From positions 194 to 64,193 of the forward strand of contig JANQFG010000037.1 in NCBI GenBank assembly GCA_028277985.1: a DNA stretch of 64,000 bases, in the 5' to 3' direction. The translations under genes and the position numbers were made by a program. The stretch is from a bacterium. GTDB taxonomy: Bacteria; Desulfobacterota; DSWW01. Shown piece by piece: positions 1 to 4,552 of this stretch (the stretch's first letter is position 1; the number at the start of each line of letters is the position of its first letter). Below the pieces are notes generated by a model that ran no database searches, was not told where the DNA came from, and saw nothing but the letters and a program-made list of their open reading frames with translations.

Positions 1-261
1 CGTGTCCAGGACCAGGATGTATCCGTCCGTTTCCGGCAGGGAAGAGCGGAGCACGTCAAAGCTGAGGGTATAGTTGGATGTGACGAAGACAGGCGATGCG
101 GCGGTCGGATTGCCGAGGGCGTAGAGACCGGCCTCGACCCTGTGTTCGCTTCTCTTGTAGCCCCAACGTGCCAGGAAATGATCCCATCGGTTTGCCGTGG
201 TGATTGTGCTGTCCGTCTGTCGGACAGGGGCGGCGGCGCCCGCCGGGTGGGACTCTGTCAT
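1..261 (-). CDS. hgcA: Mercury methylation corrinoid protein HgcA, N-terminal part (runs off the window edge)
   Basis: Not in the ORF track. Manual translation from ATG at 261: MTESHPAGAAAPVRQTDSTITTANRWDHFLARWGYKRSEHRVEAGLYALGNPTAASPVFVTSNYTLSFDVLRSSLPETDGYILVLDT. This matches the HgcA/CdhD-like pattern RWG..R...V..GLYA.G.P...SPV.VT.NY.LSFD.LR..L...D..ILVLDT that directly precedes the N(V/I)WCAAGK cap helix, which lies outside the window. RBS AGGGAG upstream; 13 bp after the hgcC-like gene. Confidence 0.88.
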   Translation of the reverse strand, partial: MTESHPAGAAAPVRQTDSTITTANRWDHFLARWGYKRSEHRVEAGLYALGNPTAASPVFVTSNYTLSFDVLRSSLPETDGYILVLDT

Positions 262-274
262 GGGGTGTCTCCCT

Positions 275-574
275 TCAGCCCTTTATGATCTCTTCCATCA
301 TCGGCCCGAGAAGCCCTTTGATGGAGGCTCCGAACTCGTCCGCCTTGATCAGGGAGAGGCAGCAAACCCTGCCCTCTCTTTCCCAGCTGATCACGGCCAG
401 CTTGTCCCCCGCCTCGATCCCGGCCCTGTCCCGGAGGTCTTTCGGGAGAACGATCTGCCCCCTGCCGTCGATCGCGACCAGCGCGTCCACCCTGCAGCCG
501 CTCACACCCCGGGCGGCCTCTTTCGAATCTGTAGGGCAGCATGCGGCTTCCGTCTCTTCAACTCGTTTTTCCAT
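275..574 (-). CDS. hgcC: HgcAB-associated AbrB/MazE/SpoVT-fold protein (HgcC-like), Cys-rich
   Basis: Start MEKRVEET at 574. AbrB signature IDGRGQIVLPKDLRDRAGIEAGDKL; Cys motifs AACC, GC and RVCC; immediately upstream of hgcA. Confidence 0.8.
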   Translation of the reverse strand: MEKRVEETEAACCPTDSKEAARGVSGCRVDALVAIDGRGQIVLPKDLRDRAGIEAGDKLAVISWEREGRVCCLSLIKADEFGASIKGLLGPMMEEIIKG

Positions 575-608
575 GGGATCCGACCCTTTGTTGCATTGAT
601 TCCAATAT

Positions 609-658
609 TTCAGTATAGTCTGAATTATCAGAATAGTGCAAATCCCGTTTGTTGTCAA
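609..658 (-). promoter_or_regulatory. Sigma70 promoter of hgcC-hgcA with overlapping repeat/palindrome (putative operator)
   Basis: Minus strand TTGACA (658-653), 17 bp, TATTCT (635-630). Direct repeats TCAG(T/A)ATAGT at 610-619 and 628-637; palindrome TCTGA-ATTA-TCAGA at 619-632. Confidence 0.65.
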
Positions 659-720
659 TCCCCTATTTCAGCGAATATGATTTGCCTGATACCTCTATAC
701 CGGATGGGAGGCGGTGAATC

Positions 721-1242
721 ATGCTGCTCCAGACCTACAGGAAGGAGATCTTCCGCTCCAAATGTCAGTCCACGGTCGAATCGCTCCACTGCTTCGGCCA
801 TCTTGACCAGGACGTCGGCGAAGCCCTTCCCTATCTGAACGCGGTGCTTGGCGGGTTCGAGTACACAAGAGATCCCCCTTCGGTCACGTTCAAGGCGCAC
901 GGGAAGCTGATCACCGTGCACCCCCGGAAGATCGCCATCAACGCGCTCCGGGACGAGCAGGAGGCGGACAAGATCCTGGAGTGGCTCAAGGGCGAGATCA
1001 ACGAGGCGTGGGAGCGGCGGCCGGAAATCGAGCCATGTTTCGAGGGGCGCCCCAGACCGAGGATCATCGAGGTCCTGAAGCTACTGCCCAAGACCAACTG
1101 CAGGGAATGCGGTGAGGCAACGTGCATGGTCTTTGCCACGCGCGTGGTGGAGGGCGTGAAAGGCGCTGACGACTGCCCGCCCCTTGCACCCCAGAACCAG
1201 GAGAGGCTCAGGAACTACATGGCGGGATTCCGTCTGGACTGA
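721..1242 (+). CDS. (Fe-S)-binding protein with C-terminal AcsC/RnfB-type FeS domain (PF04060-like)
   Basis: C-terminal LPKTNCRECGEATCMVFA...DDCPPL (Cx2Cx4Cx16C); RBS GGAGG. Confidence 0.8.
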   Translation: MLLQTYRKEIFRSKCQSTVESLHCFGHLDQDVGEALPYLNAVLGGFEYTRDPPSVTFKAHGKLITVHPRKIAINALRDEQEADKILEWLKGEINEAWERRPEIEPCFEGRPRPRIIEVLKLLPKTNCRECGEATCMVFATRVVEGVKGADDCPPLAPQNQERLRNYMAGFRLD

Positions 1243-1253
1243 GGAGACGAAGA

Positions 1254-2084
1254 ATGCCCAAAGTGCGCATCAACGAAGTCGAGCTCGCATATCGTGTTCG
1301 GGGGAACGGAGATCCGGTGGTCCTGATCGGCGGATTCACGATGGTCAAGGAATCGTGGGGTCTTCAGGTCAAAGACCTTGCACGGCACTTCCGGGTGATC
1401 ACACTGGACAACCGGGGGGTGGGCGAAACCGGGATTCCGGCCGGGCCGTTCCAGGTCTCGGACATGGCCGCCGACACAGTGGGCCTGTTGGATGCCCTGG
1501 ACATTGACGCAGCCCATGTCTTTGGTGTGTCGATGGGAGGGCTCATCTCTCAGATTCTGGCCCTGGACCACCCGGATCGGGTGAGGAAGGTCGTGCTCGG
1601 ATGCACCACGCACGGTGGAAGCCGCGCGGTTCGGCCGACCCAGGAGGTGATGGCAGCCCTCGGCAGGGCAACCGATCCTGCCGTGCCGGTCGAAGAGGCG
1701 GTGCGCAACTGGGTGCCCATCATGTTTTCGGAACGGTTCATGCGCGAAGAGCCGGACCGGCTCGGGGAGTTCATTCGGTTTTCCGTTCAGAATTGGCCCA
1801 GCCCGGAAGGGGCCGCCGGCCAGATCGGCGCCTTGAGTGTGTTCAATGTCCGCAGGCGCCTCGGTGAGATCCGGTGCCCGGTGCTGGCCATCGCAGGAAG
1901 CGAGGACCGCATGATGCCTCCTGAGAACGCGAGGCTCCTGGCAGAGGGGATTGCGGATGCCGAGCACTACCTGGTGGACGGCGCGGGCCACGGCTTCTTC
2001 TTTGAGAAGCCGGACGAGGTGGACAGCGTCTTGCTCGACTTCCTCCAAAAGGAACAGGGTCCCCCTGATGCAACTCAGGGGTGA
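1254..2084 (+). CDS. Alpha/beta fold hydrolase (enol-lactonase/lipase-like)
   Basis: DNRGVG, nucleophile GVSMGG, acid SED, AGHG catalytic His; RBS GAGGAG. Confidence 0.9.
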   Translation: MPKVRINEVELAYRVRGNGDPVVLIGGFTMVKESWGLQVKDLARHFRVITLDNRGVGETGIPAGPFQVSDMAADTVGLLDALDIDAAHVFGVSMGGLISQILALDHPDRVRKVVLGCTTHGGSRAVRPTQEVMAALGRATDPAVPVEEAVRNWVPIMFSERFMREEPDRLGEFIRFSVQNWPSPEGAAGQIGALSVFNVRRRLGEIRCPVLAIAGSEDRMMPPENARLLAEGIADAEHYLVDGAGHGFFFEKPDEVDSVLLDFLQKEQGPPDATQG

Positions 2085-3934: not shown

Positions 3935-3997
3935 ATGGTTTCGCATTGAAAGAATGAAAACAAAGGGGACAATCCGTCCGGACCGTCACGCTTGCCG

Positions 3998-4552
3998 TCA
4001 ATTTCCGAACAAGGTCACGTAGCCGTCGAGGAGCATATTGAAGTAGGCGGCGCCGCTTTCCACGGACAGACCCAGGACGACGAGGACGAACACGACGACG
4101 GGAACAAAGGGCAGCAGGGTCAGAACTCTGACGCTGTTGCCCTTTCTTTTTGAGACCCACCGGCAGATGACTTCGAGAATGCCCATACAGGCGAAGCTCC
4201 ATGTAAACAGGATGGAGCCGATGTTCACCCCGTAGTAAATCGTCTCGATGCAGGGGAATGCCTCGCTCAGGTTGTAAGAGTCGATGAAGACCCAGACGGT
4301 GAGGTTCGTCGAGCCGGCAGCGATCCTCTCTGCAGCTGTGGCCCCTCTGAAGTACGTGACCGGGTAGACGAGCACTGCCACAAGCACGACGCTGGCGAAC
4401 TGGACCATTCCTGCAAGCACGGCGACCGCATGGTACAGGGCCTGGCTGTCGATATGGTAGGCGTTGAGGTACACGGCCCGTGAAGCGATCATGACCGTGA
4501 GGGCTACGCCCGCGGGAATGAGAAATCTGTCTGCAAAGCTCGAACGTTCCAC
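3998..4552 (-). CDS. Hypothetical integral membrane protein
   Basis: About 5 hydrophobic segments; follows the sulfatase on the same strand; GTG start. Confidence 0.7.
   Translation of the reverse strand: MERSSFADRFLIPAGVALTVMIASRAVYLNAYHIDSQALYHAVAVLAGMVQFASVVLVAVLVYPVTYFRGATAAERIAAGSTNLTVWVFIDSYNLSEAFPCIETIYYGVNIGSILFTWSFACMGILEVICRWVSKRKGNSVRVLTLLPFVPVVVFVLVVLGLSVESGAAYFNMLLDGYVTLFGN

What the first reader, a model, noticed from the sequence alone, without database searches (positions are those of the whole stretch)
275..658. Candidate metal-sensing autoregulatory switch for hgcA: Cys-rich AbrB-fold protein plus operator over the -10 box
Seen: the gene co-transcribed ahead of hgcA has an AbrB/SpoVT fold with five Cys (CC, C, CC). 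Its promoter TTGACA-N17-TATTCT is overlapped by two TCAG(T/A)ATAGT repeats 18 bp apart and by nested palindromes (TTCAG..CTGAA, TCTGA..TCAGA). Established: AbrB-fold proteins commonly repress their own promoters; vicinal Cys pairs bind Hg(II)/As(III); the characterised hgcAB regulation I know of is ArsR-linked. Inference: an ArsR-independent, thiol-based regulatory circuit for mercury methylation, with a specific predicted operator.
Basis: partly seen in the sequence, partly recalled or inferred. Interest (0 to 1): 0.8.

Follow-up and report, generated by a model that had tools for sequence, protein, structure and literature searches.

The report
Cysteine-rich AbrB repressor guarding metal-methylation genes
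A small cysteine-rich DNA-binding protein encoded just ahead of the mercury-methylation genes sits behind a promoter carrying a conserved array of five-base palindromes, and its relatives usually precede the arsenic-methylation gene instead, so it is probably an arsenic- or mercury-sensing switch of a new structural type.

Summary
Window 275-574(-) encodes a 99-aa AbrB/SpoVT-fold protein with Cys12, 13, 27, 71 and 72. It matches NCBIfam HgcC (112.7 bits, cut-off 70) and lies 13 nt upstream of hgcA.

This array is unique in the 8.85-Mb genome.

Comparisons with other genomes:
- 65 of 78 upstream regions of relatives score at least 13/15 for such an array. Shuffles give 0.04 per 78, and 3 of 3432 other windows reach that score.
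- Of 30 hgcA loci, 5 of 5 with the gene have the array and 0 of 25 without it do.
- Cys27, 71 and 72 are conserved in 80-81 of 81 proteins.
- Among the 80 closest loci, arsM follows in 58 and hgcA in only 15. The two contexts are interspersed on the tree.

Best reading: an autorepressor that is released by a thiol-binding metal(loid), more likely As(III) than Hg(II). DNA binding and sensing are inferred, not shown.

The gene next to hgcA was already published as a putative regulator (PMC10349881). The operator, the cysteine pattern and the arsM link were not found in print.

The parts
275..574 (-). hgcC: 99-aa cysteine-rich AbrB/SpoVT-fold protein (Cys12, 13, 27, 71, 72)
   Evidence: NF040962 112.7 bits (cut-off 70), TIGR01439 33.4 bits; PF04014. 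AF2 core residues 28-80 at pLDDT about 90, tail 1-25 disordered. Foldseek top hits are AbrB, SpoVT, C68 and Sso7c4.
653..658 (-). -35 box TTGACA
   Evidence: Promoter scan, 10 of 12 matches. TTGAC lies upstream of the array in 62 of 65 bacterial relatives.
630..635 (-). -10 box TATTCT, overlapped by pentamer 1
   Evidence: Promoter scan; sequence.
610..632 (-). Predicted operator: TCTGA(632-628)-TAAT-TCAGA(623-619)-CTAT-ACTGA(614-610), three palindromic pentamers at a 9-bp period
   Evidence: One match in the window against 0.00 expected. It is the only site scoring 14/15 or more in the 8.85-Mb genome. The same array is found upstream of relatives.
584..588 (-). Possible ribosome-binding site AAGGG, 9 nt before the ATG
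   Evidence: Read from the sequence; inference only.
1..261 (-). hgcA, first 87 codons. The gene continues on contig C245, followed by hgcB.
   Evidence: NF040863. The end of C245 overlaps the start of C5 by 99 nt exactly, and an HgcB-like ORF follows.
652..681 (+). Divergent promoter-like site TTGTCA-18-TATGAT for the gene at 721-1242
   Evidence: Promoter scan, 10 of 12 matches. Consensus match only.

Best explanation
hgcC encodes a dimeric AbrB-fold repressor that binds the array of palindromic TCWGA pentamers (9-bp period) lying over the -10 box and transcription start of its own strong promoter. In this way it shuts off hgcC-hgcA-hgcB. Its conserved cysteines are Cys27 at the start of strand 1 (often with Cys26), Cys71-Cys72 in strand 4, and a Cys pair in a disordered N-terminal tail. 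I propose that they capture a thiol-binding metal(loid). That would distort or unfold the DNA-binding dimer and release the promoter, as As(III) does for ArsR repressors. Because the same regulator and operator mostly control arsM in relatives, the physiological effector is more likely As(III) or a methylated arsenical than Hg(II), though Hg(II) may also bind.

Shown here: the fold assignment, the conservation of the cysteines, and the conservation, specificity and genomic uniqueness of the operator. Inferred: DNA binding, repression, and the identity and action of the effector.
For: Fold. PF04014, TIGR01439 and NF040962 are all above their cut-offs. A PDB profile search finds SpoVT at E = 1e-4 and AbrB-family regulators. 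Foldseek's top hits are all AbrB/SpoVT/MazE-type DNA binders, with probability about 1 but E about 0.06.

Dimer. The homodimer model scores ipSAE 0.48, best of 3 controls 0.00. That mark was reached by 20 of 30 solved homo-pairs and 1 of 23 single chains. The runs agree in at least 81% of contacts, and partner pLDDT is at least 64. The contacts are strand 1 to strand 3', 2 to 2' and 4 to 4'. This may reflect likeness to solved AbrB dimers.

DNA-facing residues. R38, Q40, K45 and R48 are invariant in 81 proteins.

Operator.
- Three-unit array scores in 78 upstream regions: 15 in 7, 14 in 33, 13 in 25, 12 in 12, 11 in 1.
- Shuffles reach 13 or more 0.04 times per 78. Among 3432 other 130-nt windows of the same loci, 3 score 13 and none scores higher.
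- Distances between TCWGA units are 9, 18, 27, 36 or 45 bp in 85 of 94 pairs.
- It is the only site scoring 14 or more in the 8.85-Mb genome.
- In 301 genomes of the phylum, a perfect three-unit array occurs 4 times, with 0 in the reversed-pattern control. Three of the 4 lie directly upstream of an HgcC-like gene followed by arsM.
- In 30 hgcA loci, an array scoring 13 or more is present in 5 of 5 with the gene and 0 of 25 without it.
- Adjacent units are complementary in 20 pairs and identical in 19. In archaea the array flanks the TATA box. Both argue for a DNA site rather than an RNA stem.

Cysteines. C27 in 80 of 81, C71 in 80 of 81, C72 in 81 of 81, C26 in 62 of 81; the tail has at least one Cys in 71 of 81.

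Context. arsM is adjacent in 55 loci and within 1.5 kb in 3; hgcA is adjacent in 15. No other neighbour is conserved.

Precedent. ArsR As(III) sites are three cysteines, often a vicinal pair plus one, and arose several times (PMC11868830, passages). An ArsR-like regulator makes hgcAB arsenic-responsive in ND132 (preprint abstract).
Against: No binding, expression or metal data exist for any member. No RNA run was available.

The two arsM genes in this same genome lack both the regulator and the array. The circuit is therefore not a general arsenic regulon here.

I could not obtain coordinates, so whether Cys27 and Cys71/72 are close enough to share a ligand is unknown. From the strand pairings, strand 3 would lie between them.

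Vicinal cysteines can also serve redox or structural roles.

The 80 loci are the best of 561 relatives found, so the arsM:hgcA ratio may be biased.

The Foldseek E-values are weak (about 0.06) because the domain is short.
Confidence: 0.55

Rival explanations
1. It is an autorepressor that binds the TCWGA array, but the cysteines do not sense metals. They hold a structural metal or Fe-S site, or act as a thiol-disulfide (oxidant) switch. The signal is then redox state, another metabolite, or nothing beyond simple negative feedback.
For: All the operator and fold evidence applies equally. The hosts are anaerobes and HgcA is a corrinoid/Fe-S system. The ND132 ArsR-like regulator also responds to S-adenosylhomocysteine (abstract), so a methyl-cycle signal has a precedent.
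Against: The only two conserved partner genes, arsM and hgcA, are both methylases of thiol-binding metal(loid)s. The CC-plus-C pattern resembles known As(III) sites. The cysteine-bearing tail is disordered and variable in length, which is unusual for a structural site.
Confidence: 0.22
2. It is mainly a metal(loid) carrier that hands thiol-bound As(III) or Hg(II) to ArsM or HgcAB. This would be analogous to ArsD or to the C-terminal Cys pair of HgcB (both recalled, not checked here). DNA binding would be secondary or absent.
For: The protein has vicinal Cys pairs on a flexible tail. It has a strongly conserved C-terminal helix, K86-L89-G90-P91-M93, of unknown role. The N-termini of the adjacent ArsM proteins carry a similar CC-x-CC motif; CC.P is found in 28 of 53.
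Against: The array stands upstream of its own gene in nearly all relatives and nowhere else in the genome, which is what a DNA-binding autoregulator predicts. The AbrB DNA-facing residues are invariant. ArsM and HgcA are unrelated folds, so one carrier would have to dock on both.
Confidence: 0.12
3. It is the antitoxin of a type II toxin-antitoxin module (PrlF/MazE-like), and hgcAB is merely co-regulated with that module, as suggested in PMC10349881.
For: Databases label relatives as antitoxin PrlF or MazE (passages).
Against: There is no toxin partner. Of 74 loci with at least 450 nt downstream, 73 have arsM or hgcA next or within 1.5 kb, and no other neighbour family recurs in more than 6 loci.
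Confidence: 0.02

Closest known systems
As(III)-responsive ArsR/SmtB repressors (R773 ArsR, AfArsR, CgArsR) and the ArsR-like regulator upstream of hgcAB in Pseudodesulfovibrio mercurii ND132
   Same: A small homodimeric autorepressor encoded first in the operon it controls. The sensing site is built from cysteines, often a vicinal pair plus one, sometimes across subunits (PMC11868830, passages). In ND132 it is linked to hgcAB and responds to arsenic (preprint abstract and section 17).
   Different: The fold is a swapped-hairpin AbrB barrel, not a winged helix. No ArsR model appears among the hits. The operator is a periodic array of 5-bp palindromes, not a single imperfect inverted repeat. 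Sensing is untested.
AbrB/SpoVT/MazE/MraZ superfamily of swapped-hairpin DNA binders
   Same: Sequence and fold match, a predicted dimer of the same topology, and autoregulation at its own promoter. MraZ is recalled to bind a series of short direct repeats at about a 10-bp period in its own promoter. That comes from memory; my one search for it found nothing.
   Different: It has conserved cysteines at the start of strand 1 and in strand 4 and a Cys-bearing tail. It has a family-specific C-terminal helix. It has a sharply defined operator, whereas AbrB itself is recalled to bind degenerate sites. It is dedicated to metal(loid) methylase genes.
The 'TA-associated prlF/abrB gene' directly upstream of hgcA (Zhang et al. 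2023, PMC10349881) and NCBIfam NF040962 'HgcAB-associated protein HgcC'
   Same: It is the same gene family. That paper reports it upstream of hgcA in 14 hgcAB contigs and 8 of 31 confirmed methylators and proposes it as a regulator, mainly archaeal (passages).
   Different: In the main text of that paper 'cysteine' occurs 0 times. The passages I read describe no operator, and arsM is mentioned once, as an ars gene near hgcAB. Here all 81 proteins match NF040962 although 58 of 80 relatives precede arsM, so the name is too narrow.

Membership tests
NCBIfam NF040962 HgcC (HgcAB-associated protein) | Score above the curated cut-off of 70 bits | tested here: met
   112.7 bits over residues 27-95.
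NCBIfam NF040962 HgcC (HgcAB-associated protein) | Encoded next to hgcA and hgcB | tested here: met
   hgcA starts 13 nt downstream. Its remainder and hgcB lie on C245, which overlaps the start of C5 by 99 nt.
SpoVT/AbrB superfamily (PF04014, TIGR01439) | Domain models above their cut-offs | tested here: met
   PF04014 27.4 bits against 24.7; TIGR01439 33.4 bits against 28.3.
SpoVT/AbrB superfamily (PF04014, TIGR01439) | Swapped-hairpin fold formed by a homodimer | tested here: met
   Foldseek's top 10 hits are AbrB, SpoVT, C68 and Sso7c4 (probability about 1, E about 0.06). The dimer model scores ipSAE 0.48 against a best control of 0.00, with strand 1:3', 2:2' and 4:4' contacts. These are predictions only.
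SpoVT/AbrB superfamily (PF04014, TIGR01439) | Binds DNA | not testable with these tools
   Only indirect evidence: the conserved array upstream of the gene.
ArsR/SmtB metalloregulators | Winged helix-turn-helix fold (PF01022) | tested here: not met
   No such hit at E up to 0.01 in Pfam or NCBIfam. The fold is AbrB. It may work like an ArsR but is not a member.
ArsR/SmtB metalloregulators | Three-cysteine As(III) site that releases DNA | not testable with these tools
   Three to four conserved cysteines exist. Their geometry and metal binding are unknown.
Type II antitoxin (MazE/PrlF) | Adjacent cognate toxin gene | tested here: not met
   The downstream gene is hgcA here. In 73 of 74 relatives with enough sequence, arsM or hgcA follows within 1.5 kb. 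No recurrent toxin-like neighbour was found.

The most novel reading that the evidence does not exclude
A family of AbrB-fold, cysteine-based As(III)/Hg(II) sensors, spread across bacteria and archaea with its own portable promoter and operator (TCWGA at a 9-bp period), is the switch for anaerobic arsenic methylation. It has repeatedly been re-used to drive hgcAB. Mercury methylation in these organisms would then be wired into an arsenic-type detoxification circuit. That bears on the unknown native role of HgcAB, and it would give field workers a predictable inducer of methylmercury production.
Probability: 0.35. Interest if true: 0.85.

Novelty: new variant of a known kind. Interest (0 to 1): 0.72.

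Why it matters
What controls hgcAB expression, and what HgcAB is really for, are open questions. Only one regulator, an ArsR-like protein in one Desulfovibrionaceae strain, has been tested.

This analysis gives a second, structurally unrelated candidate regulator with three concrete handles. These are a defined operator, three to four candidate ligand cysteines, and a specific prediction that arsenite is the inducer.

It also shows that the same regulator-operator cassette mostly drives arsM. That ties anaerobic arsenic and mercury methylation to one control logic. The operator motif could also be used to find regulated genes in metagenomes.

If the cysteines bind metal(loid)s, this would be the first AbrB-fold metalloregulator that I know of. 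That last statement rests on my own knowledge and on the searches listed under Tried and rejected.

Tried and rejected
HgcA motif. Reading the downstream ORFs showed that most were ArsM. BLAST against two references confirmed by NCBIfam replaced the motif.

The units are too short for it, so I scored arrays with my own script.

RNA evidence. No RNA holder was listed for window 1-1300.

RNA element. There was no Rfam match in 200-800 at E up to 1. Hairpin complementarity between adjacent units is not favoured, 20 pairs against 19. I rejected an RNA structure.

Toxin-antitoxin reading. Rejected because there is no toxin neighbour.

Wider regulon in this genome. Only one site scores 14/15 or more. 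The 56 sites scoring 13 include none with an AT-rich-spacer pair apart from the hgcC site. The two arsM genes score 9 and 10.

Fe-S gene. The divergent Fe-S gene is not a conserved partner: 0 hits in the 114 other loci.

Plasmids. No match for the protein at E up to 1e-8.

Literature searches:
- 'hgcC' gave only unrelated acronyms in the 20 of 208 listed.
- hgcA + AbrB gave 1 paper.
- hgcAB + antitoxin gave 3.
- 'HgcAB-associated protein' gave 0.
- arsM + AbrB gave 3. I checked two of them, PMC10349881 and the Xanthomonas preprint, and neither links the two. The third I saw only in the listing.
- 'arsenite methyltransferase' + AbrB gave 0.
- arsM + antitoxin + upstream gave 5, none on this judging by title and abstract.
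- arsM + SpoVT gave 0.
- MraZ + TGGGN gave 0.
The library lacks most subscription journals, and supplements were closed.

Full report
WHAT IS THERE

Window 275-574 (minus strand) encodes a 99-residue protein starting at the ATG at 574. The TTG at 658 that the ORF listing offers as a start is the first base of the -35 box. Homologues begin at the column of the ATG.

The protein matches NCBIfam NF040962 'HgcAB-associated protein HgcC' (112.7 bits, cut-off 70), TIGR01439 AbrB (33.4 bits, cut-off 28.3) and Pfam PF04014 (27.4 bits, cut-off 24.7). It has five cysteines, at 12, 13, 27, 71 and 72.

Thirteen bases downstream starts hgcA (window 261-1; NF040863). The window lies 193 bases from the end of its contig. 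The rest of hgcA and an HgcB-like ORF lie on contig C245, whose end overlaps the start of C5 by 99 identical bases. The unit is therefore hgcC-hgcA-hgcB. Co-transcription is inferred from the spacing and from the lack of a minus-strand terminator-like site.

PROMOTER AND REPEATS

The scan finds TTGACA(658-653)-17-TATTCT(635-630) on the minus strand, and a back-to-back TTGTCA-18-TATGAT on the plus strand for the divergent gene. That is 2 sites where 0.4 are expected.

They resolve into one simpler element: TCTGA-TAAT-TCAGA-CTAT-ACTGA (632-610, minus strand). This is three copies of a pentamer that is itself a palindrome (TCWGA), with a period of 9 bp. The first copy overlaps the -10 box.

The pattern occurs once in the window, against 0.00 in shuffles. 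In the whole 8.85-Mb genome it is the only site scoring 14 of 15 or more, and the only TCWGA-W4-TCWGA pair.

RELATIVES

The protein has 683 relatives at E up to 0.001 in the protein collection. A scan of species-representative genomes found 561 encoding loci, of which the best 80 were kept. They come from many bacterial phyla and several archaeal lineages. All 81 proteins, including the window's, match NF040962 at E up to 0.001.

Unexpectedly, the gene that follows is usually not hgcA. By BLAST against two references confirmed with NCBIfam (arsenite methyltransferase 361 and 351 bits against a cut-off of 263; HgcA 437 bits; HgcB 106 bits), the counts are:
- arsM adjacent: 55 loci
- arsM within 1.5 kb: 3 loci
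- hgcA adjacent: 15 loci
- contig too short to tell: 6 loci
- neither: 1 locus
.

No other neighbour recurs in more than 6 loci. The unit is thus a compact regulator-plus-methylase cassette in varied surroundings.

On a maximum-likelihood tree of all 81 proteins (none left out), the hgcA-linked ones are not one group. The label needs 10 changes, at least 7 of them forced by well-supported branches. Some arsM-linked and hgcA-linked proteins are sisters, for example L049 and L059 (97/89). The tree rests on 94 columns and many forks are unresolved.

THE OPERATOR IS CONSERVED

In the 130 nt upstream of 78 of the 81 genes (three had less than 100 nt), the best three-unit array scores were 15 in 7, 14 in 33, 13 in 25, 12 in 12 and 11 in 1. 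Shuffles reach 13 or more 0.04 times per 78. Among 3432 other 130-nt windows of the same loci, 3 score 13 and none scores higher.

Distances between perfect pentamers are 9, 18, 27, 36 or 45 bp in 85 of 94 pairs. Arrays hold 3 units in 40 loci, 4 in 27, 5 in 10 and 6 in 1.

In bacteria, TTGAC precedes the array in 62 of 65 loci, most often 30-31 bp before the first unit. The array therefore starts at or just after the -10 box. In archaeal loci the units flank a TTTAAATA-type TATA box.

Two reverse controls were run:
- In 301 genomes of the phylum, the perfect three-unit pattern occurs in 4 genomes, once each, and the reversed-pattern control occurs 0 times. Three of the 4 sites lie directly upstream of an HgcC-like gene followed by arsM. 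The fourth does not.
- In 30 hgcA loci of the phylum, 5 have the HgcC-like gene and all 5 have an array scoring 13 or more. The other 25 lack the gene and none has such an array within 700 nt (highest score 12).

The two arsM genes of the window's own genome have neither the regulator nor the array. The element therefore goes with the regulator gene, which is the signature of autoregulation.

It is unlikely to be an RNA stem. Adjacent units are complementary in 20 pairs and identical in 19. In archaea the element lies upstream of the TATA box. Rfam finds nothing.

THE PROTEIN

AlphaFold2 with the 81-sequence alignment gives a confident core (pLDDT about 90 for residues 28-80) and a disordered tail (residues 1-25). 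It predicts a helix at 45-51, strands at 59-66 and 69-77, and a C-terminal helix at 78-98.

The closest solved structures are all AbrB-type DNA binders: C68 of pSSVx, SpoVT, AbrB-N, Sso7c4 and MazE. Foldseek probability is about 1 but E is about 0.06, because the domain is short. By sequence profile, SpoVT scores E = 1e-4.

A homodimer model passes the test, with ipSAE 0.48 against a best control of 0.00. That mark was reached by 20 of 30 solved homo-pairs and 1 of 23 single chains. Runs agree in at least 81% of contacts and partner pLDDT is at least 64. The contacts between strand 1 and 3', 2 and 2', and 4 and 4' are those of a swapped-hairpin dimer. Since such dimers are solved, this shows likeness, not proof.

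R38, Q40, K45 and R48, at positions that face DNA in this fold by alignment to SpoVT and AbrB, are invariant in 81 sequences. This fits an invariant operator.

A two-fold symmetric dimer on each 5-bp palindrome is an inference. So is the idea that neighbouring dimers are linked through the conserved C-terminal helix.

THE CYSTEINES

Conservation across the 81 proteins:
- C72: 81 of 81
- C71: 80 of 81
- C27: 80 of 81
- C26: 62 of 81 (glycine in the window's protein)
- at least one Cys in the tail: 71 of 81
- a CC pair in the tail: 45 of 81
- no other cysteine: 78 of 81

hgcA-linked and arsM-linked proteins do not differ in cysteine number. The N-termini of the adjacent ArsM enzymes carry a similar CC-x-CC motif.

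Known As(III) sensors of the ArsR family use three cysteines. In two types these are a vicinal pair plus one, in one case contributed across the dimer, and such sites arose independently several times (PMC11868830, passages). The pattern here would be one more such site, on a different scaffold.

I had no coordinates, so I could not test whether C27 and C71/72 can share a ligand.

MECHANISM PROPOSED

HgcC dimers occupy the pentamer array over the -10 box and transcription start and repress a near-consensus promoter. Binding of a thiol-seeking metal(loid) by the cysteines at the two ends of the barrel and on the tail loosens the dimer or its DNA face and frees the promoter.

Closely related regulators serve arsM or hgcAB interchangeably, and the only tested hgcAB regulator responds to arsenic (preprint abstract). 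I therefore favour As(III) over Hg(II) as the natural inducer.

Confidence that it is an autorepressor acting at this array is about 0.8. Confidence that the cysteines sense a metal(loid) is about 0.5-0.6. For the whole statement it is 0.55.

WHAT IS KNOWN AND WHAT IS NEW

Zhang et al. 2023 (PMC10349881; passages read) already reported an abrB/prlF/mazE-like gene directly upstream of hgcA in 14 contigs and in 8 of 31 confirmed methylators. They proposed it as a mainly archaeal regulator tied to a toxin-antitoxin system. A 2026 paper repeats this (PMC13362967, passages). NCBIfam names the family HgcC.

Three things were not found in the searches listed under Tried and rejected: the operator, the conserved cysteine pattern, and the predominant link to arsM. 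The toxin-antitoxin idea fails for lack of a toxin. The library misses most subscription journals, and supplements were closed, so earlier mention cannot be excluded.

VERDICT

This is a new variant of a known kind: a metalloregulator-like autorepressor on an AbrB scaffold. Interest is 0.72.

Noticed in passing
window 721-1242 (+): The divergent neighbour is a 173-aa protein. Its last ~55 residues match the N-terminal Fe-S domain of the corrinoid iron-sulfur protein gamma subunit and RnfB (PF04060, 52.7 bits; NF003195 positions 6-58). The first ~110 residues match nothing. It has three paralogues in the genome (C109, C171, C41) and is absent from the 114 other loci held, so it is probably an incidental neighbour of hgcC.
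   Followed up: partly
window 1-261 and G000 contig C245: hgcA is split by an assembly break, not broken. The end of C245 and the start of C5 share 99 identical bases, and hgcB follows hgcA on C245.
   Followed up: yes
L045 (hgcC-like gene at 3974-4255): One Syntrophales locus has the regulator, hgcA directly after it, and an arsM about 3.3 kb further downstream on the same strand. Both methylases therefore lie in one neighbourhood.
   Followed up: no
L008, L013, L015, L050 versus L022, L033, L058: Some bacterial loci (Clostridia, Aminicenantia) carry the archaeal-looking arrangement TCAGA-AAAG-TTTAAATA-T-TCWGA, with a TATA-like box between units. The Aminicenantia protein (L015) pairs with a Methanoperedens one (L022) on the tree, with weak support of 86/48. 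This hints at transfer of the cassette together with its promoter between domains.
   Followed up: no
ArsM N-termini in L009, L013, L023, L034, L057 and others: The ArsM enzymes that follow the regulator carry a double vicinal-cysteine motif near residue 25-40. CC.P is found in 28 of 53 and CC.P-x(2-6)-CC in 20 of 53. It resembles the regulator's own tail, where CC.P is found in 24 of 81.
   Followed up: partly
L094 198-220: One perfect three-unit array in the phylum scan is not next to an HgcC-like gene. The ORF downstream has CxxCH motifs that look like a multihaem cytochrome. That is my reading of the translation and was not checked. It may be a chance site or an orphan operator.
   Followed up: partly
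window 601-613 and 659-671 (+): the repeat finder reports TCCAATATTTCAG and TCCCCTATTTCAG 58 bp apart, flanking the promoter. It also reports CCCTTTGTTG and CCGTTTGTTG 61 bp apart. Their meaning is unknown, and two-copy short repeats are often chance.
   Followed up: no
G000 contigs C61:516-1262 and C96:5250-5990: The genome has two arsM genes above the family cut-off (321 and 306 bits), with neither an HgcC-like gene nor a pentamer array upstream. Here the regulator serves hgcAB only.
   Followed up: yes
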